Below are positions 5,294 to 17,637 of a DNA stretch of 64,000 bases, piece after piece. The stretch is from Pseudomonadota bacterium (lineage in GTDB: Bacteria; Pseudomonadota; Alphaproteobacteria; Sphingomonadales; Govanellaceae). Each line of letters opens with the position of its first letter. Position 1 is the stretch's first letter. The notes under the pieces were generated by a model that was given only the letters and a program-made list of their open reading frames with translations, was not told the DNA's origin and searched no databases. Position numbers and translations under genes: made by a program. The stretch is taken from positions 68,840 through 132,839 of the forward strand of contig QEVO01000007.1 of the NCBI GenBank assembly GCA_003577275.1, read 5' to 3'.

Positions 5294-5701
5294 CTAGTGG
5301 CCGAGGGAGCTATGCAGACGGGCGTCTATGGTGCTGAAATGGCGACCAAACCAGGTGGAGAGGCGGGAGGCGAGAACGTCATCGACATCGCCGCCCCCGT
5401 CTTCCTCATAAGCATCCATGATATCGCGGATTTCGTCCAAAAGACGCTCATGATCGGCCTTGTGCTCATCATAACCGGCATAATTCATGGCGCGCATCTG
5501 CTGTTCTTCCAGCGCAAAATGCGAAGCAATCTTGGCGTAGATCTCGCCAAGAAACGCCATCACCACATCCTTGCCGCCCTGCGCCTTCATTTCGGCGTGC
5601 AGTTCGTTGATGAGCGCGATGAGATGCTGATGCTCATGGTCCACCGCCGGCGACCCGGTGGAGTAAGTCTCGTTCCAGCTGAGGAGAGTCATGATAGCCA
5701 A
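5294..5701 (-). CDS. Hemerythrin-like metal-binding protein (bacteriohemerythrin)
   Basis: 135 aa. Motifs WNETYSTGSPAVDHEHQHLIALINEL, HFALEEQQM and YDEHKADHERL give the H / HxxxE / HxxxH / HxxxxD di-iron ligand pattern of hemerythrins. Confidence 0.85.
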   Translation of the reverse strand: MAIMTLLSWNETYSTGSPAVDHEHQHLIALINELHAEMKAQGGKDVVMAFLGEIYAKIASHFALEEQQMRAMNYAGYDEHKADHERLLDEIRDIMDAYEEDGGGDVDDVLASRLSTWFGRHFSTIDARLHSSLGH

Positions 5702-5705
5702 TCTC

Positions 5706-6218
5706 TTACTTCAGGATGATGAACCCGCCGCCCTCGGCGCGAAAGTCGATCACCATGCTGTGTCGCGGCCCCAAGTCCAGATCAAATGTCCGCTCGTAAT
5801 CGAAGCCGGTTTCCCGGCGGCTATCGCGCATACGGACCTCAATGTTATGCCGTCCGACAGGCAGTTTGAATTTTTGATATATTTTTGAAGGGCCGTCGCC
5901 AAAAAGCCCCGTCGGCTTAGCGCTATCACGATAAATCGTCTCGCCATCCAGCGCAAGCTCGACCACCAGAGGCACCCGACCGCGGGGGCAACTTTGCGGT
6001 TTTCGCATATTGGGCGGCAGCTTGGCCAGCTCCTCACGGCTGCGCTTGCGGCACTCCGTCACCGGCGCGCCGCCATGATTGAAGGCCAGCCGCAACAGCG
6101 CCTGATCCTCGGGGAAATGGCGATAGGCGGGCGTGGTCGCAAAATAGCCGATGAGCGCCGCCAGCGCCGCATAAAACACCCCCTGGCCGGCGAATTTAAG
6201 CACGCTTGACACCGGCAT
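5706..6218 (-). CDS. Membrane-anchored hypothetical protein
   Basis: 170 aa with one N-terminal hydrophobic helix (GVFYAALAALIGYFATT) followed by a soluble domain. It overlaps the end of the upstream gene and lies 4 nt from the hemerythrin gene. I recognise no family. Confidence 0.55.
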   Translation of the reverse strand: MPVSSVLKFAGQGVFYAALAALIGYFATTPAYRHFPEDQALLRLAFNHGGAPVTECRKRSREELAKLPPNMRKPQSCPRGRVPLVVELALDGETIYRDSAKPTGLFGDGPSKIYQKFKLPVGRHNIEVRMRDSRRETGFDYERTFDLDLGPRHSMVIDFRAEGGGFIILK

Positions 6219-7752
6219 CCTCCTCGGAATGAGCGGGCGTCATCTGCGCCAAGCGCTGACTGAAGGCTTGAAGCTCACGTTTGGCCTTGGCTTTTTCAAA
6301 TCTGCCGATCCACAGAGCGGCGATACGGTCACGCGGCACCCGCTGACGCAGATGGGGATCACGCTTGCGGTCGATCCGATCTTTCATCCACTCGACGCCG
6401 AAACGATTATAGCAGCCGCTATCCGGGCAGCCGACCAATGCTACGCCATTGGCCAGCTTCCGGCTTAACACATAATCGATGAACGATGGCGGCAGCGCCG
6501 CGATGCAAGGCAGGTCAACGACGGCGATATTCGCGTTTTCCAAATCCTTTGCCGCAACGCTGTAACGGCAGCTATAGACCAGAATACTGGACGGACCAGT
6601 CAGCCGCGCCGCCGCCTGCTCGGTATCCTGGCGCAGCACCTTGATCGGCCGGTCCGGCAGATCGATGCCGGTGATCGGCTCAACGGCGCGGCGGAACGGC
6701 GTCGAACTGGGACAGGCGCCGGCGCAGATGCCGCAACCGACGCACAGTTTCGGCTTGACCACCGCCTCGCTCGGAAACGGCTTACCGTCGCTGCGCGGCA
6801 TCATGGTGACGGCATTATAAGGGCAGTCTTCAACGCAACGGGTGCAGCCGTTGCAGTTGTCGAGGTCCACCACCGCCGCCGGAACGCGGCTGCCGCGCGG
6901 CAGCCACGGCACCACCATCAGCAAGAGGGTGGCGAGGCCGGCGAACGCCCACACCGAATTGCCGGGCCAGCTATCAAGCAGCGGAAAGAACGCCAGATAA
7001 TACCAGTCCATCGCCAGTTCGCCGGGCACCAGGGCCATATCGGCCGGCGGCTGGCTGACCGCCGGCTTGATGAACGACAACGCCAGCAGCATCAAGGTGA
7101 TGCCCGCCATCAGCCCGAACGCCGGATTGACCTTGGCGCGGCTGACGCGAACGATGTGAATCCATAAGGCAAACACCAGGAACAACGGCACGGCGATGTG
7201 CAGAAACACCAGGAGCGTAAAGAACCGATCGCTCAAGCCGGTGTTGGTGAGAAAATTGCGCGCGATGGTGCCGCCGAAAATCGGCAATAGATCAAGCCAT
7301 TCGGTGGTGTTGACGGCGATATATTGCGCCAGCTGGTCCCACACCAGCCAGTAGCCGGTAATGCCGGAAATCATTACCAGCCAGATCACCGGTGCGCCCG
7401 TTGCCCAGGAAAACCAGCGCACCCCCCGGAAGCGATCAAGGGCGAATTCCCGCAGCATGTGCAGCGCCATGACCACCACCATGCCATCCGAAGCGTAACG
7501 GTGGAAGCTGCGCATGACGCCGCCGAAGTACCACTGGTTATAGGTCAGGCGCTCCATGGAGCTATAGGCGCCATGGATGCTGGTATCAAAAAAGATATAA
7601 ATGTAAACACCGCTGGCAACGACGATCCACAGGAAGAAAAAGCCAATGGCGCCAAGCTGATAAAACGGATTCCACGCCGGGGTAAAGACCCGGGAGAGCG
7701 CTGCTTCCATAGGTTCGAAGCCACGCCGTAAGAGGGACTGTATGAACTTCAT
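6196..7752 (-). CDS. Fusion protein: dihaem cytochrome b domain + 2x[4Fe-4S] ferredoxin domain + MvhD/FlpD-like iron-sulfur domain
   Basis: 518 aa. Two H-x13-H pairs sit in predicted TM helices (FHRYASDGMVVVMALH, LHIAVPLFLVFALWIH). Two ferredoxin motifs are present (CNGCTRCVEDCP, CVGCGICAGACP). The C-terminal Cys-rich region reads ILVYSCRYS..VDLPCIAALP..VGCPDSGCYNRFG. An ATGA overlap joins it to the SCO1 gene. Confidence 0.8.
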   Translation of the reverse strand: MKFIQSLLRRGFEPMEAALSRVFTPAWNPFYQLGAIGFFFLWIVVASGVYIYIFFDTSIHGAYSSMERLTYNQWYFGGVMRSFHRYASDGMVVVMALHMLREFALDRFRGVRWFSWATGAPVIWLVMISGITGYWLVWDQLAQYIAVNTTEWLDLLPIFGGTIARNFLTNTGLSDRFFTLLVFLHIAVPLFLVFALWIHIVRVSRAKVNPAFGLMAGITLMLLALSFIKPAVSQPPADMALVPGELAMDWYYLAFFPLLDSWPGNSVWAFAGLATLLLMVVPWLPRGSRVPAAVVDLDNCNGCTRCVEDCPYNAVTMMPRSDGKPFPSEAVVKPKLCVGCGICAGACPSSTPFRRAVEPITGIDLPDRPIKVLRQDTEQAAARLTGPSSILVYSCRYSVAAKDLENANIAVVDLPCIAALPPSFIDYVLSRKLANGVALVGCPDSGCYNRFGVEWMKDRIDRKRDPHLRQRVPRDRIAALWIGRFEKAKAKRELQAFSQRLAQMTPAHSEEDAGVKRA

Positions 7753-8639
7753 GTCGAGCCGGATTCTCGTCTTTTCTTGGTGTATTTACGCAATAACCAT
7801 GCCTCGCGCACCAACACGACGGCGACCAGTGCAAGACATAGCCCACCGACGATGATTCCCACAAGCAAGGAATAGTCGAAATGATAGCGTTCGCTCCTGG
7901 GATCATAAATCGTGCAAATCAAACGCACCCGGCCGATTAGGCCATCAACGCTGGTAAGGTTCGCCTTGCCGCCGAAAATCAGTCGCTTGAGAGGATCAAC
8001 CACCATCGGCGGCTCGAAATCAGCGCCGTATACTTGGGTTGCCACCTTGCCATCGCTACTAAGAATGGTGGTTTGCGCCAAGTGATCGTAGCCCTTGGGC
8101 GAGGCGTAGAAAATAAAGCCCAGATCCTTGGCCAGCTTCGCCATGGTGTCGGCATCAGTGCTCAAGAGCGTCCAGCTTCGATGATTTGCGCCCTGCTCCT
8201 TGCCATACTGTCGCATGCGGGCAGGCGTGTCGACCGCCGTGTCGAAACCGATGGTGACGATGGAAAAGCTGTCTACGCCCAGCGCATTGCCGGCGGCCCG
8301 CGCTGAGCGGCTGAGCGCCTGGGTGATCATCGGGCAGGTATGATAGCAACTGGTGTAAATCAGGCTGATGACCAGTGGCTTGCCGCGGTATTGCGACAGC
8401 CTCACCGTGCGTCCGTCGGACGCGATGAAGCGATAGTCGCCGACCTCTCGCCCGATCGCCGCCTGACTGTAGGCTAGCGCCTGCCGTTCGTCGAATTCGG
8501 AAAATTTTGGGGCAGCCTCTTCGTGGCCGACGGCAGGATTGCCGCTATTGGCCTCGCCATGGGCAAAAGCGCCGCCGAGACTTGTCGCCAGCGTCAACCA
8601 AACCATCAGGACGCAAAGAACCAGATCCCTCTTACTCAT
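7749..8639 (-). CDS. SCO1/SenC family copper chaperone / thiol-disulfide oxidoreductase
   Basis: 296 aa with an N-terminal signal or anchor. CxxxCP copper motif (IYTSCYHTCPMITQAL), a downstream conserved His (YDHLAQTTIL) and a C-terminal TM helix. It overlaps both neighbours by 4 nt. Confidence 0.85.
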   Translation of the reverse strand: MSKRDLVLCVLMVWLTLATSLGGAFAHGEANSGNPAVGHEEAAPKFSEFDERQALAYSQAAIGREVGDYRFIASDGRTVRLSQYRGKPLVISLIYTSCYHTCPMITQALSRSARAAGNALGVDSFSIVTIGFDTAVDTPARMRQYGKEQGANHRSWTLLSTDADTMAKLAKDLGFIFYASPKGYDHLAQTTILSSDGKVATQVYGADFEPPMVVDPLKRLIFGGKANLTSVDGLIGRVRLICTIYDPRSERYHFDYSLLVGIIVGGLCLALVAVVLVREAWLLRKYTKKRRESGST

Positions 8640-9490
8640 CCGAACAACAACTTATCAACGATCGTTCCCACCAATAATAAGCTGACCTGCACCAAAGAAG
8701 CTTTAAAATTGGTAAGAGCATGGGGCTTGTCGGGAAATTGCACCAGTTGCACGTTGCGCACCAGGAACAGCGCGCCGCCGACGCCAGCGCATATTCCATA
8801 TATCCAGTTCATACCATAAATCAGCGGCAGCAGCGACAAGGGAACGAGGAGCGCGGTATGCGCCAAACTCGCCACCGCGGCAACCTTATTGCCGGCAACT
8901 ACCGGCAGCATAGGCACCCCCGCCGCGGCGTAATCGTCTTTCAAGGCAATGGCCAGGCTCCAAAAGTGCGGCGGCGTCCACAAGAACAACACCACGGCAA
9001 GGATGATGGCCTGGGGCGACAGGCCCGGATCTACCGCCGCAGCGCCGGCCAGCACCGCGAAACTGCCGGCCAGCCCGCCGATGACGATATTGAGCCAACT
9101 ACGGCGCTTCAGCCAGACCGTGTAGATCACGCCATAGGTCACCGCACCGAGAAAAACGTATAGCGCCGCCATGACATTGGTCGCCACGGCAGCCACGGCG
9201 ACCGCCGCTGCCAGCATGGCGACGATGAGGAGGGGCCAGAGAAGACTTGGCGCAAACGCGCCGGTAACAAAAGGCCGCGTGGCGGTGCGCGCCATGCGGG
9301 CGTCAAGATCGCGCTCAGCGTACTGATTGAAAGCGCCGGCAGCCGCCGAGGACGCCAGCACCGCCAGCGCCAACAGAAATGCCTGCCAACCGCCCGGCAT
9401 CGTCCCCGGCATGATCGCCATGCCGGCAAGGGCATTCAAGGTTATGGCGACACCGATCCGTAGCTTGAAAACCGAGGCGAATTGCCGCAA
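8636..9490 (-). CDS. ctaB: Protoheme IX farnesyltransferase (heme O synthase)
   Basis: 284 aa polytopic UbiA-family protein. Motifs NQYAERDLDARMARTATRPF and LWTPPHFWSLA are typical of CtaB/CyoE. The start is a TTG in the ORF track. Confidence 0.88.
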   Translation of the reverse strand: MRQFASVFKLRIGVAITLNALAGMAIMPGTMPGGWQAFLLALAVLASSAAAGAFNQYAERDLDARMARTATRPFVTGAFAPSLLWPLLIVAMLAAAVAVAAVATNVMAALYVFLGAVTYGVIYTVWLKRRSWLNIVIGGLAGSFAVLAGAAAVDPGLSPQAIILAVVLFLWTPPHFWSLAIALKDDYAAAGVPMLPVVAGNKVAAVASLAHTALLVPLSLLPLIYGMNWIYGICAGVGGALFLVRNVQLVQFPDKPHALTNFKASLVQVSLLLVGTIVDKLLFG

Positions 9491-9562: not shown

Positions 9563-11263
9563 TTACCTGAGCGGCCAAACCTCGGCCAGATACTTCCAGT
9601 TGATGAAGTAGTAGAGCACGAAAGAGACGAAGAATACCGCAACCAGCACCACGGTTCCCGGGATCTTCGCATGCTCCTCGCTGCCATAGGTGGCGACCGC
9701 CGCGGCTTCTTCCTTGATGTTGGCAAGCTTTGGCCACATGACCGTGTCTTTCTCCATCTTTTTACCAAAGAAGACGGAGGCGACCACGATGATGATGAAG
9801 ACAACGCCGCCGATCGCCGCCAGAATAGCGGACAACCCATTCAGTCCCATCATCAGGAACGCCGTCGCCGGCAGGTCAATGGACATCGCCGCATCAGCGA
9901 AGGTGATGTCCCAATGCCGGCGCGGCACGCCGAGCGTCCCGGCGCCCATCATGAACAGCGAGATACCCATGGCGCCCAAGCCAAAGAGATAGGGCTGCCA
10001 TTGCGCCAGCTTTTTCATCATGATCTGGCGCCGGAAGATCAGCGGGATCAAAAGATATGTGACGGCCATGAAGGCAAGCGTGGTGCCCGTCACCACCGTG
10101 GCGTGGAAGTGACCCGGTACGTAGATCGTATTGTGCATGATCAGGTTGATCTGCTCGGTGCCCATCACGACGCCTGAAATGCCGCCAAGGAATCCGAACA
10201 TCACCAACGACATGAACATGCCGGAAAATGCCGGGTTATCCCAAGGCGCCTTGCGCAGCCATTCGAACAGCCCTTTGTTCAGCCCCTTCCGCCGTTGCGC
10301 CGCCTCAATGGAGCCGGGCACGGTCATGCCGTGGATCATGCTGCCGAGAACCGCCAGATACATGGCGTAGCTGGTGTTGAAGATCTTCCATTCCGACGAT
10401 ACGCCGGGTTCCACCAGAAGATGGTGGGCGCTGGCGAGCTGAAGGAACAGGATATAGAGGAGGAACGCCGCGCGGCTGACCTTCTCGGACAGCGGCTTGG
10501 CACCCAGCACCAGGGCGGCGATGGCATACCACACCGCAACGTGGGCGGAGACGTTGATCTGCTGCGACGAGTGCCCCATGCCCCACCAGACAATCTTGTA
10601 AACCAGGGTGTCAATGTTGGCGAGCCAGCCCAGGGACCAGAAGTAGGTGGGGATCAAAATCACCGCGCCGGAGGCGATCGTAAACACGGCGATGATCGCC
10701 GCCGTGATGGCGCCGAAGGTCACCAGCGGTACCGACCCCTGATAGGTCTTTTCGTCCTTGGCGACGACCAAGGTGCCGAAAAAGACGAAAACGGCAACCA
10801 GCGCCCCGACGGCAAACACGATCAGACCAAGATAGAAATTGGGATCGGCCTGCATCGGCGGGTAGGAGGTGAACATCACGCTGGAATTGCCTTGCAGTAT
10901 CGCGATGTTGGCCAAGATGCCGCCGCCCACCATCAAAATAAACGCCAGCCAGGCCACTTTCGGCATCGCCAGCCGGCAGCCAAGCAGCACTGAGGAGGCA
11001 AAATAGAGAACCGCCACCTCAAAAAACAGGATCCACAGCAAAAGCACGTCGGTGCCATGGGCCGTCAGCACTTGATAAAATGTCTCCGCCGGCAGCAGAT
11101 GGACCGCCGGCCAGCGGGTCAACGCCACCAGCAGCCCCAAAAGGCCGCCCACCGCAAGAGATACCACCGCCGCCACCGCATTGGCCTTAATCAGGCTTTC
11201 GGTGGTTGCGTAAACCTTCAGTCCGGTATGGTTACAGATTCTAAAGTCAGCCGCTGTCGCCAT
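9563..11263 (-). CDS. Heme-copper oxidase superfamily subunit I, B-family-like, lacking the cross-link tyrosine (candidate NO reductase)
   Basis: 566 aa, about 12-13 TM helices. It aligns by eye with Thermus ba3 subunit I: LTAHG, SYPPMQADPNFYLG, WWGMGH, SAHHLLVEPG, PWDNPAF and HNTIYVPGHFH. The ba3 motif GHPIVY is GHSSQQ here. Confidence 0.9.
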   Translation of the reverse strand: MATAADFRICNHTGLKVYATTESLIKANAVAAVVSLAVGGLLGLLVALTRWPAVHLLPAETFYQVLTAHGTDVLLLWILFFEVAVLYFASSVLLGCRLAMPKVAWLAFILMVGGGILANIAILQGNSSVMFTSYPPMQADPNFYLGLIVFAVGALVAVFVFFGTLVVAKDEKTYQGSVPLVTFGAITAAIIAVFTIASGAVILIPTYFWSLGWLANIDTLVYKIVWWGMGHSSQQINVSAHVAVWYAIAALVLGAKPLSEKVSRAAFLLYILFLQLASAHHLLVEPGVSSEWKIFNTSYAMYLAVLGSMIHGMTVPGSIEAAQRRKGLNKGLFEWLRKAPWDNPAFSGMFMSLVMFGFLGGISGVVMGTEQINLIMHNTIYVPGHFHATVVTGTTLAFMAVTYLLIPLIFRRQIMMKKLAQWQPYLFGLGAMGISLFMMGAGTLGVPRRHWDITFADAAMSIDLPATAFLMMGLNGLSAILAAIGGVVFIIIVVASVFFGKKMEKDTVMWPKLANIKEEAAAVATYGSEEHAKIPGTVVLVAVFFVSFVLYYFINWKYLAEVWPLR

Positions 11264-11860: not shown

Positions 11861-12028
11861 TTACTGAGCCATCGGAATGTTGGCGACTTCCACCACGCCC
11901 CATACAATATAAAGGAGCGTCGGGCTCAACACGCCGATAAACAGTAACAGGAATGGATTGTCTAAGAGCCGTTGCATAAAGGGAATTTTTTCCCCTTCGG
12001 CGCCGGAACCGTCAGCATCATTCGCCAT
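11861..12028 (-). CDS. Small single-TM protein (55 aa), first gene of the oxidase operon
   Basis: Not in the ORF track because it is under 60 aa. It translates MANDADGSGAEGEKIPFMQRLLDNPFLLLFIGVLSPTLLYIVWGVVEVANIPMAQ. A strong SD (AAGGGGAG) lies 6 nt upstream of the ATG. It is positioned like the small subunit IIa of ba3-type oxidases. Confidence 0.5.
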   Translation of the reverse strand: MANDADGSGAEGEKIPFMQRLLDNPFLLLFIGVLSPTLLYIVWGVVEVANIPMAQ

Positions 12029-12133: not shown

Positions 12134-12147
12134 TTGATCTAGGTCAA
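12134..12147. promoter_or_regulatory. FNR/NNR/DNR-type box upstream of the oxidase operon
   Basis: TTGATCTAGGTCAA (TTGAT-N4-GTCAA), about 106 nt upstream of the small-ORF start codon and intergenic. Confidence 0.6.
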
Positions 12148-12180: not shown

Positions 12181-12366
12181 TCAGAATTCAAATTGTTCTA
12201 GAACGGCAAATGCCGCCAGCGCCAAGCCGAGAAGGATAGTAAAAAAAACCAGCGATCTGCCTTTAAGACGAGCGCCGTAGTAAACCTCGATGCGATTCAA
12301 TATCCAGTCCGCCATCACGTAAAGGATGACAGCGACCGCCGTGAACACAAGATATTTCATACCCAA
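12181..12366 (-). CDS. Small hypothetical membrane protein (61 aa, 2 predicted TM helices)
   Basis: MGMKYLVFTAVAVILYVMADWIL...LVFFTILLGLALAAFAVL. It lies between the nirS terminator and the FNR box of the next operon. No recognisable family, no clear SD, and it is more AT-rich than its neighbours. Confidence 0.35.
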   Translation of the reverse strand: MGMKYLVFTAVAVILYVMADWILNRIEVYYGARLKGRSLVFFTILLGLALAAFAVLEQFEF

Positions 12367-14269: not shown

Positions 14270-14283
14270 TTGACATATGTCAA
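14270..14283. promoter_or_regulatory. FNR/NNR-type box in the nirS / nirI divergent promoter region
   Basis: Perfect palindrome TTGACATATGTCAA. Its centre is about 62 nt upstream of the nirS ATG (14214) and about 95 nt upstream of the nirI ATG (14372). Confidence 0.7.
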
Positions 14284-14371: not shown

Positions 14372-16645
14372 ATGCGCTCATACTTGCATTGTATCCAGGC
14401 TGGTAGGCTGGGCGGTAAGCATGGGGGGGCTTGGCTGGCGGCCATTTGGATTGTGGCCGCCACCCTATTTTTGCCGGCGATGGCCCAGCCGCCGGGCCCG
14501 GTTCCACCGCTGCAAGGCGGTTTATTGACGACGATCTTCCCCGGCGCCATCCAGGCGTCGGCCATGACTGGCTCTCCGCCGGCGGCGGAAGTCCAGGTCG
14601 AGGGGGGATTTGGTGGGTACATCTTTTCGACATGGTCAGTCATCCACTCTACAGGATATTCTGGCGCGCCTATAGATATTTTGGTGGGGTTGAGCCGCGA
14701 CGGTCGGATTACCGGCGCGGTCTTACGGCAGCACACCGAACCCATCCTGGTGATCGGCATCTCGGACGCCGATCTGAAGGCGTTTGTCGCCCAATTCTCC
14801 GGGCTCTCCATTCGCGGCAAGATATCCCGCAAGGCCGGTGAGGCCGCCGGACGCCTGCCGGACGCCATCAGCGGCGCTACCGTGTCCAGCGCGGTCATTG
14901 GAGACGCCATTCTGACCTCGGCGCGGCTGGTGGCCGAATCACGGCGGCTGTTTGAGGCCGCGCCGACGGTCGCGCCCGAAATTCCCGAGGTCAAGAGCTG
15001 GCAGGACTTTATCGCCAGCGGCGCCATCGGTCACTTGCGGCTCAGCCGGGGCGAAGTGGCGGCGCGGCGCGGCGAAAAACTCGACCACGACGAGGAAGAG
15101 GACGAGCACGAGGACGATCCCTTTATTGATCTTTATGCCGGCGTGGTGACCCCGCATGCCATTGGCAGTCCGATGATCGGCGCGCAGACCTACAACAGAT
15201 TACGCGCCGAAATGGCTGCCGGCGATCAGCTATTCGCCATACTCGCCAACGGTCTTTATTCCTATAAGGGAACGCGCTATGTGCGCAGCGGCGTGTTCGA
15301 CCGCATCAGCCTGGTGCAGGGCGCGCTGACCATTCCCTTCACCCGCGACCGCTATGTCCTTATCGAGAATCTGGCGTTTCCCGACGGCGACATTCCTGAG
15401 TTTCGTGAAATCGGCCTCTTTATTCTGCCGGCAGACAGCGGCTTTGACGGGTCGCTCCCGTGGCGGCTTGATCTGCGGGTAGACGCCGATGACGCCAACC
15501 CTGTGGTTTTCTCGCTGGCCCACACGCCGCAGGCAAGCAGCGCCATCAAACCAGCGCCGGAGCCGGCGGCGGAACCGGCCCCGGCGCAGACAACACCCAC
15601 TCGGCAACCGCAGATACCATCTCAGCCGCAAGCGCATACTACAGTACAACCGCCGCCGCCACCGGCGCAAATCCAGGCAGAGGCGCAGCTCCCGACCGCG
15701 ATATCGATCGAGCCGCTGTGGAAGCGCGCTTGGACGACAAGCGTGCCGGAGATCATTTTTCTCACTCTGATGCTGACGACGCTAACCGGCATTCTGCTGT
15801 TTCAGGACTTCATCGTCCGCAAGACCCACGCCTATTTGATCGCCCGCAATATCTTTCTTGCCGTGACCTTGGTCTGGCTGGGCTACATTGCCGGCGGCCA
15901 GTTGTCGGTGGTCAATGTCCTGACCTTTGTTCACGCCCTGCGTCAGGATTTCCGCTGGGAATATTTCCTGGTATCGCCCATCATTTTCATCCTGTGGGGA
16001 TATGTGGCGGTGGCCATGCTGTTCTGGGGCCGCGGCGTCTACTGCGGCTGGCTCTGTCCATTCGGCGCGATGCAGGAACTGCTGAACGAAGCGGCGCGGC
16101 GCTTGAAGGTGCCGCAAATTCGCGTTCCCTTCGGCCTTCATGAACGGCTGTGGCCGATCAAGTACGTGATCTTTCTCGGGCTGTTTGCGATCTCGCTTTA
16201 TTCCATGGAGCTGGCGGTGATCGCCAGCGAAGTGGAGCCCTTCAAAACCGCCATCGTGCTTAAGTTCGTGCGCGGCTGGCCGTTCCTGTTTTATGTCGTG
16301 GCCATATTGGTCGCGGGATTATTCATCGAACGGTTTTTCTGTCGCTATTTCTGCCCGCTGGGCGCGGCGCTCGCCATTCCGTCGCGGCTCCATATGTTCG
16401 ATTGGCTGAAGCGGCGGCGGCAATGCGGCGCCGAGTGCAGCATTTGCGCCCAGCACTGCACCGTCCAGGCGGTTCATCCCAACGGCGCGATCAACCCCAA
16501 CGAATGCGTTCAGTGTCTGAAGTGTCAGACGCTATATTATGATGACCATACCTGCCCGCCCCTGATCGCCAGCCGCAAACGCGCCGAGAAATTGCGCGCC
16601 TCCGGCTCGCTGATCGCGGAAAAACTATCGGAGGGCAAGAAATGA
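14372..16645 (+). CDS. nirI: NirI/NosR family membrane FMN- and Fe-S-binding regulator/electron-transfer protein
   Basis: 757 aa with an N-terminal signal/TM. Periplasmic FMN-binding motif (ISGATVSS), several TM helices, CX3CP motifs (YCGWLCPFGAMQELL, CRYFCPLGAA) and a C-terminal ferredoxin-like CGAECSICAQHC...CVQCLKCQ. A GGAGG SD lies 9 nt upstream. It is divergent from nirS as in Paracoccus. Confidence 0.88.
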   Translation: MRSYLHCIQAGRLGGKHGGAWLAAIWIVAATLFLPAMAQPPGPVPPLQGGLLTTIFPGAIQASAMTGSPPAAEVQVEGGFGGYIFSTWSVIHSTGYSGAPIDILVGLSRDGRITGAVLRQHTEPILVIGISDADLKAFVAQFSGLSIRGKISRKAGEAAGRLPDAISGATVSSAVIGDAILTSARLVAESRRLFEAAPTVAPEIPEVKSWQDFIASGAIGHLRLSRGEVAARRGEKLDHDEEEDEHEDDPFIDLYAGVVTPHAIGSPMIGAQTYNRLRAEMAAGDQLFAILANGLYSYKGTRYVRSGVFDRISLVQGALTIPFTRDRYVLIENLAFPDGDIPEFREIGLFILPADSGFDGSLPWRLDLRVDADDANPVVFSLAHTPQASSAIKPAPEPAAEPAPAQTTPTRQPQIPSQPQAHTTVQPPPPPAQIQAEAQLPTAISIEPLWKRAWTTSVPEIIFLTLMLTTLTGILLFQDFIVRKTHAYLIARNIFLAVTLVWLGYIAGGQLSVVNVLTFVHALRQDFRWEYFLVSPIIFILWGYVAVAMLFWGRGVYCGWLCPFGAMQELLNEAARRLKVPQIRVPFGLHERLWPIKYVIFLGLFAISLYSMELAVIASEVEPFKTAIVLKFVRGWPFLFYVVAILVAGLFIERFFCRYFCPLGAALAIPSRLHMFDWLKRRRQCGAECSICAQHCTVQAVHPNGAINPNECVQCLKCQTLYYDDHTCPPLIASRKRAEKLRASGSLIAEKLSEGKK

Positions 16646-17637
16646 GCACGTCCATGCCGTCCCTCACACGCCGCCGGATGTTGACCATCATCGCCGCCAC
16701 GGGCGCGGCAAGCCTCTTGCCGTGGACGGGACGAGCGGCCACAGCCTACGAGGCAACCGAATGGCGCGGCTATGCCCTGGGCGCCGATGCCCGCCTGCTG
16801 CTTCATGGCCGCAGCAGGGCCGACGCGGAGCGGGCGATCGCCGTGTCCATGGCGGAAATCGAACGGCTGGAGAATGAGTTCAGTCTTTATCGCGCCAATT
16901 CCAGCTTATGCCGCTTGAATCGCGACGGCATGCTGCCGCGGCCGAGCGCCGATATGACCGCTTTGCTGCGGCTGGGTTGTCGCTTCGGCGATCTAAGCCA
17001 TGGCGCGTTCGACATTTCGGTGCAGCCGCTGTGGCAGCTTTATGCTGCGCATTTCGCCTTGCCCAACGCCGACCCGGCGGGACCGTCGGAAGATAAAATT
17101 AAAGAGACGCTTGCCAGAGTGGATTATCGGCGGATTAGGATCGACGATGACGCCATCCGGCTGGCTCCCGGCATGGCATTGACGCTTAATGGCATCGCGC
17201 AAGGATACATTACCGATCGGGTGGCCGATATCCTGCGTGATCAAGGTTGGTCGCACATCCTGGTTGATCTTGGCGAAACCCGAGCTCTCGATAGCCATCC
17301 CAGCGGGCGGCCGTGGCGCATCGGTCTGAAGGGCGGACCATCGGCCGCTGTCGCGCCGACGCTCGACATTGCCGATCGCGCCGTCGCCACCTCCGCCCGC
17401 CGCGGCTTCATATTTGATGCTGCCGGCCGCCATTGCCATCTCCTGGACCCTGCCTCGGGACATGCCGCCCAAGGCTTTGCCAGCGTCACCGTCGTTGCGC
17501 GTCGCGCCGCCGACGCAGACGCCTTATCCACGGCACTGTCGATCATGCCCCCGGCGCAAGCGGCATCACTGGCGCAACGCCTTAAGGACAGCGAAATTTG
17601 GGTCGGCGTCGATAACGGCAGCATTGCGCACCTCTAG
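16642..17637 (+). CDS. nirX: ApbE-family FAD:protein FMN transferase (NirX/NosX-like)
   Basis: 331 aa with a Tat-type signal (SLTRRRMLTIIAATGAASLL). ApbE motifs FDISVQPLWQLY and LNGIAQGYITDRVADIL. A 4-nt overlap joins it to nirI. Confidence 0.88.
   Translation: MSTSMPSLTRRRMLTIIAATGAASLLPWTGRAATAYEATEWRGYALGADARLLLHGRSRADAERAIAVSMAEIERLENEFSLYRANSSLCRLNRDGMLPRPSADMTALLRLGCRFGDLSHGAFDISVQPLWQLYAAHFALPNADPAGPSEDKIKETLARVDYRRIRIDDDAIRLAPGMALTLNGIAQGYITDRVADILRDQGWSHILVDLGETRALDSHPSGRPWRIGLKGGPSAAVAPTLDIADRAVATSARRGFIFDAAGRHCHLLDPASGHAAQGFASVTVVARRAADADALSTALSIMPPAQAASLAQRLKDSEIWVGVDNGSIAHL

What the first reader, a model, noticed from the sequence alone, without database searches (positions are those of the whole stretch)
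6196..7752. Unusual three-domain fusion (dihaem cytochrome b + 2x[4Fe-4S] ferredoxin + MvhD/FlpD-like domain) inside the oxidase/NOR operon
Seen: one 518-aa ORF joins three parts.
- A membrane domain with two H-x13-H pairs (FHRYASDGMVVVMALH; LHIAVPLFLVFALWIH), the spacing used by bc1/b6f cytochrome b for two b hemes.
- Two CxxCxxCxxxCP motifs.
- A C-terminal Cys-rich domain (ILVYSCRYS, VDLPCIAALP, VGCPDSGCYNRFG) that resembles the MvhD/FlpD subunit of hydrogenase/heterodisulfide-reductase systems.
It is translationally coupled (ATGA overlaps) within the SCO1/ctaB/oxidase operon. The operon encodes no cytochrome c, Rieske protein or cupredoxin as an electron donor for the CuA site.
Inference: it could be a dedicated quinol-oxidising or electron-input module for the CuA-containing enzyme. 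I do not know of a characterised respiratory complex that uses such a fusion.
Basis: partly seen in the sequence, partly recalled or inferred. Interest (0 to 1): 0.7.

Follow-up and report, generated by a model that had tools for sequence, protein, structure and literature searches.

The report
Membrane electron-relay protein accompanying eNOR
The three-part protein is real and is a conserved but uncharacterised companion of an alternative nitric-oxide reductase (eNOR) in hundreds of bacterial species, most likely carrying electrons from the cell interior across the membrane to help build or feed the enzyme's copper centre.

Summary
The ORF is real but lies on the minus strand (7752..6196). 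All three domains are confirmed. There is a bc1/b6-type dihaem cytochrome b cut short after helix F, then 2x[4Fe-4S], then an MvhD/FlpD-like four-Cys domain. The neighbouring haem-copper enzyme is an eNOR, because Gln replaces the cross-linked Tyr.

The fusion is not a one-off. At least 579 species genomes encode it. In all 80 loci fetched, the order subunit II, subunit I, (ctaB), SCO1, fusion, 170-aa protein, hemerythrin is kept. Relatives at 30-40% identity still sit beside B-type haem-copper enzymes.

In about half of the family's representatives the downstream 170-aa protein is fused to the C-terminus through one extra membrane helix. Sister proteins keep the same cytochrome b but carry NAD(P)H-flavin reductase modules instead of the Fe-S part.

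The Fe-S domains are cytoplasmic. Some eNOR operons (Thermus, Thermomicrobium) lack SCO1, the fusion and the 170-aa protein.

My best reading is a cytoplasm-to-periplasm electron relay working with SCO1, probably a metal reductase for CuA maturation. Direct electron supply to CuA is the main rival. No member has been characterised.

The parts
6196..7752 (-). 518-aa fusion protein: cytochrome b (helices A-F), then 2x[4Fe-4S], then an MvhD/FlpD-like domain
6889..7752 (-). Cytochrome b domain, aa 1-288. It has six membrane helices, haem ligands H84/H98/H185/H199, and the motif M-D249-W-Y-Y (family consensus LDWFY) at the position of the PEWY loop.
6673..6888 (-). 2x[4Fe-4S] ferredoxin domain, aa 289-360, with two CxxCxxCxxxCP motifs. 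Predicted cytoplasmic.
6238..6600 (-). MvhD/FlpD-like domain, aa 385-505. Cys395/416/442/447 align with Cys residues of solved MvhD chains.
5706..6218 (-). 170-aa protein ('p170'): an N-terminal membrane helix plus a beta-sandwich. No Pfam family. It is fused to the C-terminus of the cytochrome b protein in 71 of 150 family representatives.
7749..8639 (-). SCO1/SenC copper chaperone with a CxxxCP motif and an unusual extra C-terminal membrane helix. Its stop codon overlaps the fusion's start (ATGA).
8636..9490 (-). Haem O synthase (ctaB/cyoE)
9563..11263 (-). eNOR subunit I, a B-family-derived haem-copper enzyme. The GHSSQQ motif places Gln at the position of ba3 Tyr237.
   Evidence: diagnostic residue from PMC8756737
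11273..11818 (-). eNOR subunit II with an intact CuA motif (CNEFCGIGHHQM)
11861..12028 (-). 55-aa single-helix membrane protein. It is conserved upstream of subunit II in 58 loci and also in the eNOR operons of Thermus, Thermomicrobium and Defluviimonas.
5294..5701 (-). Hemerythrin-family protein, the last gene of the conserved cassette (75 of 80 loci)
12134..12147 (.). FNR/NNR-like box TTGATCTAGGTCAA upstream of the cassette. A consensus match only.

Best explanation
The protein is the core of a conserved accessory module made of SCO1, the cytochrome b-Fe/S fusion and p170. The module travels with eNOR, and occasionally with ba3-type oxidases.

Shown:
- It is a bc1/b6-type dihaem cytochrome b that ends after helix F.
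- Its C-terminal 2x[4Fe-4S] and [2Fe-2S]-type MvhD domains lie in the cytoplasm next to the inner haem.
- p170 is a beta-sandwich held on the other, periplasmic side by one membrane helix.
- SCO1 is encoded immediately upstream with overlapping stop and start codons.

Inferred:
- Electrons enter from a cytoplasmic donor and pass [2Fe-2S], then the two [4Fe-4S] clusters, then the inner haem b, then the outer haem b.
- They leave at the periplasmic face, where the Qo-like pocket with its invariant Asp lies.
- This would be a NOX/FRE-style transmembrane reductase built on a cytochrome b scaffold.

Favoured but unproven: the periplasmic acceptor is copper, either free or SCO1-bound Cu(II), or the SCO1/CuA site. 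The module would then be a dedicated metal reductase that matures or maintains the CuA centre. That role would parallel CcoG and CrpH for other haem-copper oxidases.
For: Architecture and cofactor ligands.

Topology:
- Alignment to cytochrome b helices A-F.
- Six hydrophobic helices and positively charged cytoplasmic loops.
- 71 of 150 representatives continue through one more membrane helix into a p170 domain.

Dedicated association:
- At least 579 species genomes carry a relative.
- Among the 80 loci, SCO1 is present in 79, p170 in 78 and hemerythrin in 75. Subunit I is present in 66; in L021, L026 and L058, which I checked, the contig ends before the expected position, and I did not check the others.
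- All 65 subunit I ORFs detected carry the eNOR Gln signature.
- Relatives at 30-39% identity still sit beside eNOR or beside a ba3-type oxidase.
- The same eight-gene cassette lies on a Defluviimonas plasmid.

Direction of electron flow: sister proteins with 49-55% identical cytochrome b carry Flavodoxin+FAD+NAD(P) or Fer2+FAD+NAD(P) modules instead of the Fer4+FlpD part.

Copper link:
- SCO1 lies next to every variant. In L087 the order is PCuAC, CtaG, SCO1, cytochrome b-reductase, NnrS. In L088 it is SCO1, cytochrome b-FNR, p172.
- SCO1 in these cassettes has an extra C-terminal membrane helix in 49 of 50 cases.

Not a core subunit:
- The Thermus and Thermomicrobium eNOR operons lack SCO1, the fusion and p170.
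- Purified eNORs are reported to contain haem A_s only (PMC11214002).

Precedents:
- CcoG is a membrane 2x[4Fe-4S] cupric reductase with a periplasmic Ig-like domain, encoded beside the cbb3 oxidase genes (PMC7558416).
- CrpH is a dihaem PepSY_TM protein that supports haem-copper oxidase function (PMC13038864).
Against: - No activity, cofactor content or interaction has been measured for any member.
- The version in this window has no NAD(P)H or flavin domain, so its cytoplasmic donor is unknown.
- Five redox cofactors is a heavy investment for an assembly factor.
- The conserved Qo-like motif could equally mean that quinone or quinol is a substrate.
- p170 shows no homology to the CcoG Ig-like domain (hhalign probability 0.1%). 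It also has no universally conserved metal ligands, so the CcoG parallel is architectural only.
- I could not check whether R. marinus or M. magnetotacticum, the sources of the purified eNORs, encode the fusion.
Confidence: 0.42

Rival explanations
1. The protein is a catalytic electron-input chain. It, perhaps with SCO1 or p170 as a periplasmic relay, delivers electrons from a cytoplasmic donor across the membrane directly to CuA of eNOR. NO reduction would then be independent of bc1 and cytochrome c.
For: - The architecture, topology and variants with NAD(P)H modules are the same as for the best explanation.
- The cassette encodes no cytochrome c or cupredoxin donor.
- The cassette moves as a self-contained unit on a plasmid.
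- The proteins are reported in the denitrifying Ferrigenium proteome.
Against: - Thermus and Thermomicrobium eNOR operons lack it.
- Purified eNORs are reported to contain only haem A and to work with TMPD/ascorbate.
- Its presence tracks SCO1 and other copper chaperones rather than the catalytic subunits.
- 17 of 80 loci carry a cytochrome c gene nearby.
- The route would waste the energy otherwise conserved through bc1.
Confidence: 0.22
2. The cytochrome b domain oxidises quinol at its Qo-like site, or reduces quinone, and so links the quinone pool to eNOR or to the cytoplasmic Fe-S clusters.
For: - The fold is that of bc1/b6-type cytochrome b, including the ef-loop motif, with Asp conserved in 140 of 143 aligned representatives.
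- The nearest NCBIfam model is a b-type cytochrome from a reductase operon (ExtP, E 1e-28, below its cutoff).
Against: - No Rieske or other high-potential P-side acceptor gene is present.
- Helices G and H are absent.
- The bc1 Qi-site residues are not recognisable by my reading of the sequence.
- Swapping in NAD(P)H-flavin modules fits a cytoplasmic donor better than quinol.
Confidence: 0.13
3. The module is an energy-coupling quinol:NAD+ or quinol:ferredoxin oxidoreductase supercomplex. Part of the large free energy of NO reduction would drive reduction of a low-potential cytoplasmic acceptor. This was proposed for related genes in Ferrigenium.
For: The Ferrigenium straubiae preprint proposes this for two cytochrome b/Fe-S genes in its eNOR operon. 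MvhD and HdrA2-type domains do occur in bifurcating systems.
Against: - There is no flavin site for bifurcation in this protein.
- Electrons would have to move from the periplasmic to the cytoplasmic side against the membrane potential, and uphill from haem b to NAD+. This is an inference from standard potentials.
- The module is widespread in heterotrophs that do not need reverse electron flow.
Confidence: 0.05
4. The module has a haem-cofactor role. It would supply or remove electrons for making the haem A_s that eNOR needs, possibly without O2, in place of the CtaA found in other eNOR operons.
For: - eNOR is reported to use haem A_s, and many eNOR operons are reported to carry ctaA.
- Thermomicrobium has a CtaA::CtaB fusion and no module.
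- Only 1 of about 85 module-carrying loci has a ctaA within 10 kb.
- The fusion lies two genes downstream of ctaB, with SCO1 between them.
Against: - Both haems are bis-His, as in electron-transfer cytochromes b, which does not suggest a catalytic site.
- The tightest linkage is to SCO1, not to ctaB. ctaB is missing from some cassettes.
- Thermus has neither ctaA nor the module in its operon.
- ctaA may simply lie elsewhere in these aerobes' genomes.
Confidence: 0.05

Closest known systems
Cytochrome b of bc1 / b6f complexes (Pfam PF00033)
   Same: It has the same fold (Foldseek probability 1.0, about 285 aligned columns). It has the same four His haem ligands with x13 spacing in helices B and D, as in bc1. 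It has the same helix order A-F and an ef-loop motif related to PEWY.
   Different: It stops after helix F. No Rieske or cytochrome c1/f partner is encoded. Asp replaces the PEWY Glu. The cytoplasmic face is fused to Fe-S domains. It lies in a haem-copper enzyme operon.
MvhD, and the C-terminal ferredoxin+MvhD part of HdrA2, in hydrogenase/heterodisulfide reductase systems
   Same: Residues 292-509 match the last 200 residues of the HdrA2 model (E 2.4e-16). The four Cys align with Cys residues of solved MvhD chains.
   Different: No hydrogenase, HdrABC or flavin partner is present in the cassette. The domain is tethered to a membrane cytochrome in aerobic or denitrifying Proteobacteria.
CcoG/FixG, cupric reductase for cbb3 oxidase assembly
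   Same: It is a membrane protein with two cytoplasmic [4Fe-4S] clusters, followed by a membrane helix and a periplasmic beta-sandwich. It is encoded next to a haem-copper enzyme and copper-handling genes.
   Different: CcoG has no haems and different membrane helices. There is no detectable homology between p170 and the FixG Ig-like domain. CcoG is thought to reduce Cu(II) on the cytoplasmic side.
NOX / FRE / STEAP / Dcytb, and bacterial PepSY_TM (FoxB, CrpH) transmembrane dihaem reductases
   Same: The logic is the same: cytoplasmic reductant, then two stacked haems b, then an extracytoplasmic metal acceptor. Sister proteins of this family even carry FAD/NAD(P)H modules. CrpH supports haem-copper oxidase function.
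   Different: The membrane fold is unrelated. This is analogy only.
Cytochrome b/[Fe-S] genes in the Ferrigenium straubiae eNOR operon (bioRxiv 10.64898/2026.01.22.701106)
   Same: They are probably the same family and have the same operon neighbours: eNOR II and I, haem O synthase, sco1, and a 'scaffold protein'.
   Different: The preprint treats them as unusual and as specific markers for Ferrigenium. It proposes a quinol:NAD+ supercomplex. The survey here shows that the family is widespread.

Membership tests
Cytochrome b (bc1/b6f type) | Four His haem ligands in helices B and D, 13 residues apart | tested here: met
   H84/H98 and H185/H199. They are invariant in alignment A1 and in about 140 of 150 representatives.
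Cytochrome b (bc1/b6f type) | Cytochrome b fold and sequence-family score above the curated cutoff | tested here: met
   PF00033 scores 70 bits against a cutoff of 27. PDB cytochrome b6 scores 4e-26. Foldseek matches bc1 cytochrome b.
Cytochrome b (bc1/b6f type) | PEWY Qo-site motif | tested here: inconclusive
   The position holds (L/I/M)-D-W-(F/Y)-(Y/F). Asp is conserved in 140 of 143, and there is no Pro or Glu.
Cytochrome b (bc1/b6f type) | Works with a Rieske protein and cytochrome c1/f encoded alongside | tested here: not met
   Neither is found in the window cassette or in the 80 related loci.
2x[4Fe-4S] ferredoxin domain | Two CxxCxxCxxxCP motifs | tested here: met
   C300-C310 and C337-C347. 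Fer4, Fer4_7 and other models score above their cutoffs.
MvhD / FlpD (PF02662) | Family score above the cutoff, and four conserved Cys that align with those of MvhD | tested here: met
   35 bits against a cutoff of 22.3. A profile of the domain against 9sw2_D gives 7e-15 and against 5odc_D gives 1e-13. Three of the Cys align in 9sw2_D and 8rvu_F, and all four align in 5odc_D. That these Cys ligate a [2Fe-2S] cluster is prior knowledge and was not tested here.
MvhD / FlpD (PF02662) | Partnership with a hydrogenase or heterodisulfide reductase | tested here: not met
   No such genes occur in the cassette or in related loci.
eNOR (the neighbouring enzyme) | Gln at the position of the cross-linked Tyr, and a CuA-type subunit II | tested here: met
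   GHSSQQ aligns with ba3 GHPIVY. The criterion comes from PMC8756737. The CuA motif CNEFCGIGHHQM is present.
eNOR (the neighbouring enzyme) | NO reductase activity without O2 reductase activity | not testable with these tools
   Shown only for the R. marinus enzyme.
CcoG-type cupric reductase | Sequence homology to CcoG/FixG, including its Ig-like C-terminal domain | tested here: not met
   hhalign of the p170 profile against the S. meliloti FixG C-terminus gives probability 0.1%. No FixG-type Pfam hits were found.
CcoG-type cupric reductase | Cu(II) reductase activity needed for haem-copper enzyme maturation | not testable with these tools
   This needs biochemistry and genetics.
NOX/FRE ferric-reductase superfamily | Ferric-reductase transmembrane domain | tested here: not met
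   No such Pfam hit was found. The membrane domain is cytochrome b. Only the functional logic is shared.

The most novel reading that the evidence does not exclude
SCO1, the fusion and p170 form a Rieske-less respiratory complex built on a cytochrome b scaffold. It would wire cytoplasmic low-potential reductant (ferredoxin or NAD(P)H), or quinol, straight to the CuA centre of eNOR, with copper-loaded SCO1 or p170 acting as the periplasmic relay. This would be a new kind of electron-input complex for denitrification and a relic or offshoot of bc-complex evolution.
Probability: 0.15. Interest if true: 0.85.

Novelty: new variant of a known kind. Interest (0 to 1): 0.62.

Why it matters
eNOR is reported to be among the commonest NO reductases in environmental data, and so is a source of the greenhouse gas N2O. 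Neither its physiological electron donor nor its assembly pathway is known.

A conserved multi-cofactor membrane protein travels with eNOR in hundreds of species. That gives a concrete and genetically tractable candidate for either role.

It also shows a bc-type cytochrome b working without a Rieske protein, with interchangeable cytoplasmic reductase modules. This bears on how bc complexes evolved and on how bacteria deliver reducing power to periplasmic copper centres.

In practice the cassette is poorly annotated. Subunit I is called 'cbb3-type oxidase', the fusion is called 'cytochrome b N-terminal domain-containing protein' or 'hydrogenase iron-sulfur subunit', and p170 is 'hypothetical'.

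Tried and rejected
- A homologue search with eNOR subunit I returned only 73-100% identical relatives, so it said nothing about distant eNOR operons.
- The supplements of the PNAS eNOR paper are not held. Literature searches found no characterisation of the fusion. The Magnetospirillum gene-cluster papers are not in the library. The AOB 'orf1' of norSY-senC-orf1 is never described in the papers I read.
- A single-sequence search of the FlpD domain against the PDB found nothing. A 12-sequence profile did find MvhD.
- I considered a Cu or Fe site in p170 formed by H48/C56/M71/C77. These residues are invariant among close homologues but not across deep four-part relatives, so I dropped the idea.
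- The p170 fold gave no significant PDB match, only generic beta-sandwiches (E > 1e-3). It has no Pfam family even at E = 10.
- I tested p170 for homology to the CcoG Ig-like domain and found none.
- One representative, P0316, looks like a SCO1-cytochrome b fusion. Its linker has no membrane helix, so it may be a frameshift artefact of the ATGA overlap. I did not use it as evidence.
- I looked for complementary distribution of ctaA and the module. Only three module-free eNOR operons were available, which is too few to decide.
Full report
**1. The observation**

The ORF exists but is on the minus strand (7752..6196, 518 aa). Pfam assigns Cytochrome_B to residues 25-203 (E 2.6e-19), two Fer4 motifs to 294-350, and FlpD to 406-504. 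All score above their curated cutoffs. NCBIfam adds that residues 292-509 resemble the C-terminal ferredoxin+MvhD part of HdrA2.

The two H-x13-H pairs, both CxxCxxCxxxCP motifs and four further Cys account for every Cys in the protein. They are invariant in 36 homologues. They are nearly invariant in 150 cluster representatives down to 30% identity.

A profile search of the PDB gives cytochrome b6 at 4e-26. It aligns residues 18-300 with mitochondrial cytochrome b, which covers helices A to F including the PEWY region. An AlphaFold2 model (pLDDT 77.5) matches bc1 cytochrome b by Foldseek. A profile of the C-terminal domain hits solved MvhD chains at 7e-15 to 1e-13. Three of its Cys align with MvhD Cys in 9sw2_D and 8rvu_F, and all four align in 5odc_D.

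The ATGA overlaps at ctaB/SCO1 and at SCO1/fusion are real. The next gene starts 23 nt inside the fusion, behind a GAGGAGG.

**2. The neighbourhood**

The haem-copper subunit I next door aligns with T. thermophilus ba3 at 2e-47. It has Gln where ba3 has the cross-linked Tyr237: GHSSQQ against GHPIVY. That substitution is the published diagnostic of the eNOR family (PMC8756737). Subunit II keeps a full CuA motif.

A strong terminator-like hairpin follows nirS. An FNR/NNR-like box precedes the cassette. The cassette therefore looks like its own denitrification-regulated unit. On the minus strand it reads: a 55-aa membrane protein, subunit II, subunit I, ctaB, SCO1, the fusion, a 170-aa protein (p170), and hemerythrin. 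The source assembly is GCA_039794145.1.

**3. How widespread it is, and what it travels with**

The fusion has thousands of full-length homologues and 535 clusters at the 50% level with E < 1e-30. A scan of one genome per species found at least 579 species carrying it.

In the 80 loci fetched, tblastn with the window's proteins found SCO1 in 79, p170 in 78, hemerythrin in 75 and subunit I in 66, always in the same order. In L021, L026 and L058, which I checked, subunit I is missing only because the contig ends before it; I did not check the other loci without it. All 65 subunit I ORFs detected carry the Gln signature. The same eight-gene cassette lies on a plasmid of an isolate, Defluviimonas sp. 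SAOS-178_SWC. There it is annotated as 'cbb3-type cytochrome c oxidase subunit I', 'SCO family protein', 'cytochrome b N-terminal domain-containing protein' and 'hypothetical protein'.

Relatives at only 30-39% identity still sit beside eNOR genes (L085, L086, L093). One sits beside a true ba3-type oxidase that keeps the Tyr (L094). The association is therefore with CuA-containing B-type haem-copper enzymes, and overwhelmingly with eNOR.

**4. New anatomy: p170 and module swapping**

Many representatives are about 690-720 aa long. Their extra C-terminal part is homologous to the window's p170 and is joined through one hydrophobic helix. A domain census of the 150 best representatives gives:
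- 71 with cytochrome b, Fer4, FlpD and p170
- 44 with cytochrome b, Fer4 and FlpD
- 12 with cytochrome b and Fer4
- 3 in which the same cytochrome b (49-55% identical) is followed by NAD(P)H-dependent reductase modules, either Flavodoxin+FAD+NAD or Fer2+FAD+NAD

These flavin variants also lie next to SCO1. One sits in the run PCuAC, CtaG, SCO1, cytochrome b-reductase, NnrS, a few genes from a Fer4-FlpD copy and an eNOR. Another lies between SCO1 and a p170 homologue.

p170 models with high confidence (pLDDT 95.6) as an N-terminal membrane helix plus a beta-sandwich. It has no Pfam family and no significant fold match. Its His and Cys residues are not conserved in deep relatives.

SCO1 in these cassettes keeps CxxxCP in 48 of 50 cases. 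In 49 of 50 cases it has an unusual extra C-terminal membrane helix just before the fusion's start codon.

**5. Topology**

Three lines of evidence place the N-terminus and the segment after helix F on the cytoplasmic side. These are homology to cytochrome b, six hydrophobic helices, and positively charged N-side loops. The Fer4 and FlpD domains then sit between helix F and, in the fused forms, a seventh helix that leads to p170. So the Fe-S domains are cytoplasmic and p170 is periplasmic.

This is an inference from sequence and was not measured. It means the only route from the Fe-S clusters to the periplasm is through the two haems.

**6. Mechanism**

Shown: a transmembrane dihaem scaffold with a cytoplasmic chain of three Fe-S clusters, partnered with SCO1 and p170, and dedicated to eNOR-type enzymes.

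Inferred: electrons flow from the cytoplasm outward. The interchangeable cytoplasmic modules are of the kind that oxidise NAD(P)H. The reverse direction would be uphill and against the membrane potential.

Favoured acceptor: copper at SCO1 or CuA, which would make this a maturation or maintenance reductase. My reasons are these:
- The module co-varies with SCO1 and other copper chaperones, not with the catalytic subunits.
- It lies in the biogenesis half of the operon.
- It is absent, together with SCO1, from the eNOR operons of Thermus and Thermomicrobium.
- Purified eNORs are reported to contain only haem A_s.
- There are precedents. CcoG is a 2x[4Fe-4S] membrane cupric reductase with a periplasmic Ig-like domain. 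CrpH is a dihaem PepSY_TM protein that supports haem-copper oxidases.

The CcoG parallel is not homology. p170 against the FixG C-terminus gives hhalign probability 0.1%.

I put about 0.4 on this reading and about 0.2 on direct catalytic electron supply to CuA. Smaller weights go to a quinone-linked role, to the bifurcating quinol:NAD+ idea of the Ferrigenium preprint, and to a haem A role. Only 1 of about 85 module-carrying loci has ctaA nearby.

**7. Comparison with what is known, and novelty**

Each domain belongs to a known family. The protein is not a bc complex, because it has no Rieske partner and is truncated. It is not an Mvh/Hdr component, because no such partners are encoded.

No member has been studied experimentally. 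The only mention I found is a 2026 preprint that calls such genes 'rather unusual' in Ferrigenium and treats them as genus markers. The survey here shows instead that they are a general feature of proteobacterial-type eNOR cassettes.

I class it as a new variant of a known kind, namely a membrane redox accessory protein of a copper enzyme, alongside NosR, CcoG and CrpH. The role of NosR cited here is prior knowledge. The unusual points are the use of a bc-type cytochrome b as the transmembrane wire and the Rosetta-stone link to p170.

**8.

The description was accurate apart from the strand. The proposed co-occurrence test is passed. The 'quinol-oxidising input module for CuA' reading is only partly supported, because the Fe-S domains are cytoplasmic, there is no Rieske-type partner, and some eNOR operons do without the protein.

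Noticed in passing
window 11861-12028 (-): A 55-aa single-helix ORF (…PFMQRLLDNPFLLLFIGVLSPTLLYIVWG…) sits just upstream of eNOR subunit II. It is conserved in 58 of 80 loci and also in the module-free eNOR operons of Thermus, Thermomicrobium and Defluviimonas. It is a candidate third, small subunit of eNOR.
   Followed up: partly
window 12181-12366 (-): A 61-aa ORF with two hydrophobic helices lies between the nirS terminator and the cassette. A similar ORF occurs in 24 related loci. It lies upstream of the FNR-like box.
   Followed up: no
window 12134-12147 and 14270-14283: FNR/NNR-like palindromes. TTGATCTAGGTCAA lies upstream of the eNOR cassette. TTGACATATGTCAA lies in the nirS-nosR intergenic region. 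A 15-bp-stem terminator at 12425-12392 (-) follows nirS.
   Followed up: partly
window 7749-8639 (-), and loci L005-L084: The SCO1 of these cassettes has an extra C-terminal membrane helix in 49 of 50 cases, in addition to the usual N-terminal anchor. Its C-terminus should therefore be cytoplasmic, right where the fusion gene starts.
   Followed up: partly
L085 5323-6759 (-), L087 5020-6516, L092 2067-2354: A second, shorter COX1-like gene (478-498 aa, motif WGGGH(V/I)LQ(Y/F)) lies next to paralogous fusion/p170 genes in distant lineages. Its haem-copper family was not determined.
   Followed up: no
L094 273-4903: A four-part relative (792 aa, 32% identity) lies directly after a true ba3-type oxygen reductase (GHPLVYFWLLPAY) and its cupredoxin subunit. 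The module is therefore not strictly specific to eNOR.
   Followed up: partly
L090 9838-11640 (Thermomicrobium roseum megaplasmid): The 600-aa gene annotated 'heme o synthase' after eNOR subunit I is a CtaA::CtaB fusion, that is, haem A synthase joined to haem O synthase.
   Followed up: partly
L089, L090, L091 and protein names: eNOR subunit I is routinely annotated 'cbb3-type cytochrome c oxidase subunit I'. Subunit II is annotated 'hypothetical protein' or 'cytochrome'. This is systematic misannotation of the family.
   Followed up: no
L053: A contig labelled 'uncultured Halobacteria archaeon' carries a cassette 55-71% identical to the proteobacterial ones, together with nirS and nosR. This suggests a binning error or recent transfer.
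   Followed up: no
window 14372-16645 (+) and 16642-17637 (+): A NosR-type membrane Fe-S flavoprotein and ApbE are encoded divergently from nirS. NosR is another dedicated membrane redox accessory of a copper enzyme, found in the same gene neighbourhood.
   Followed up: no
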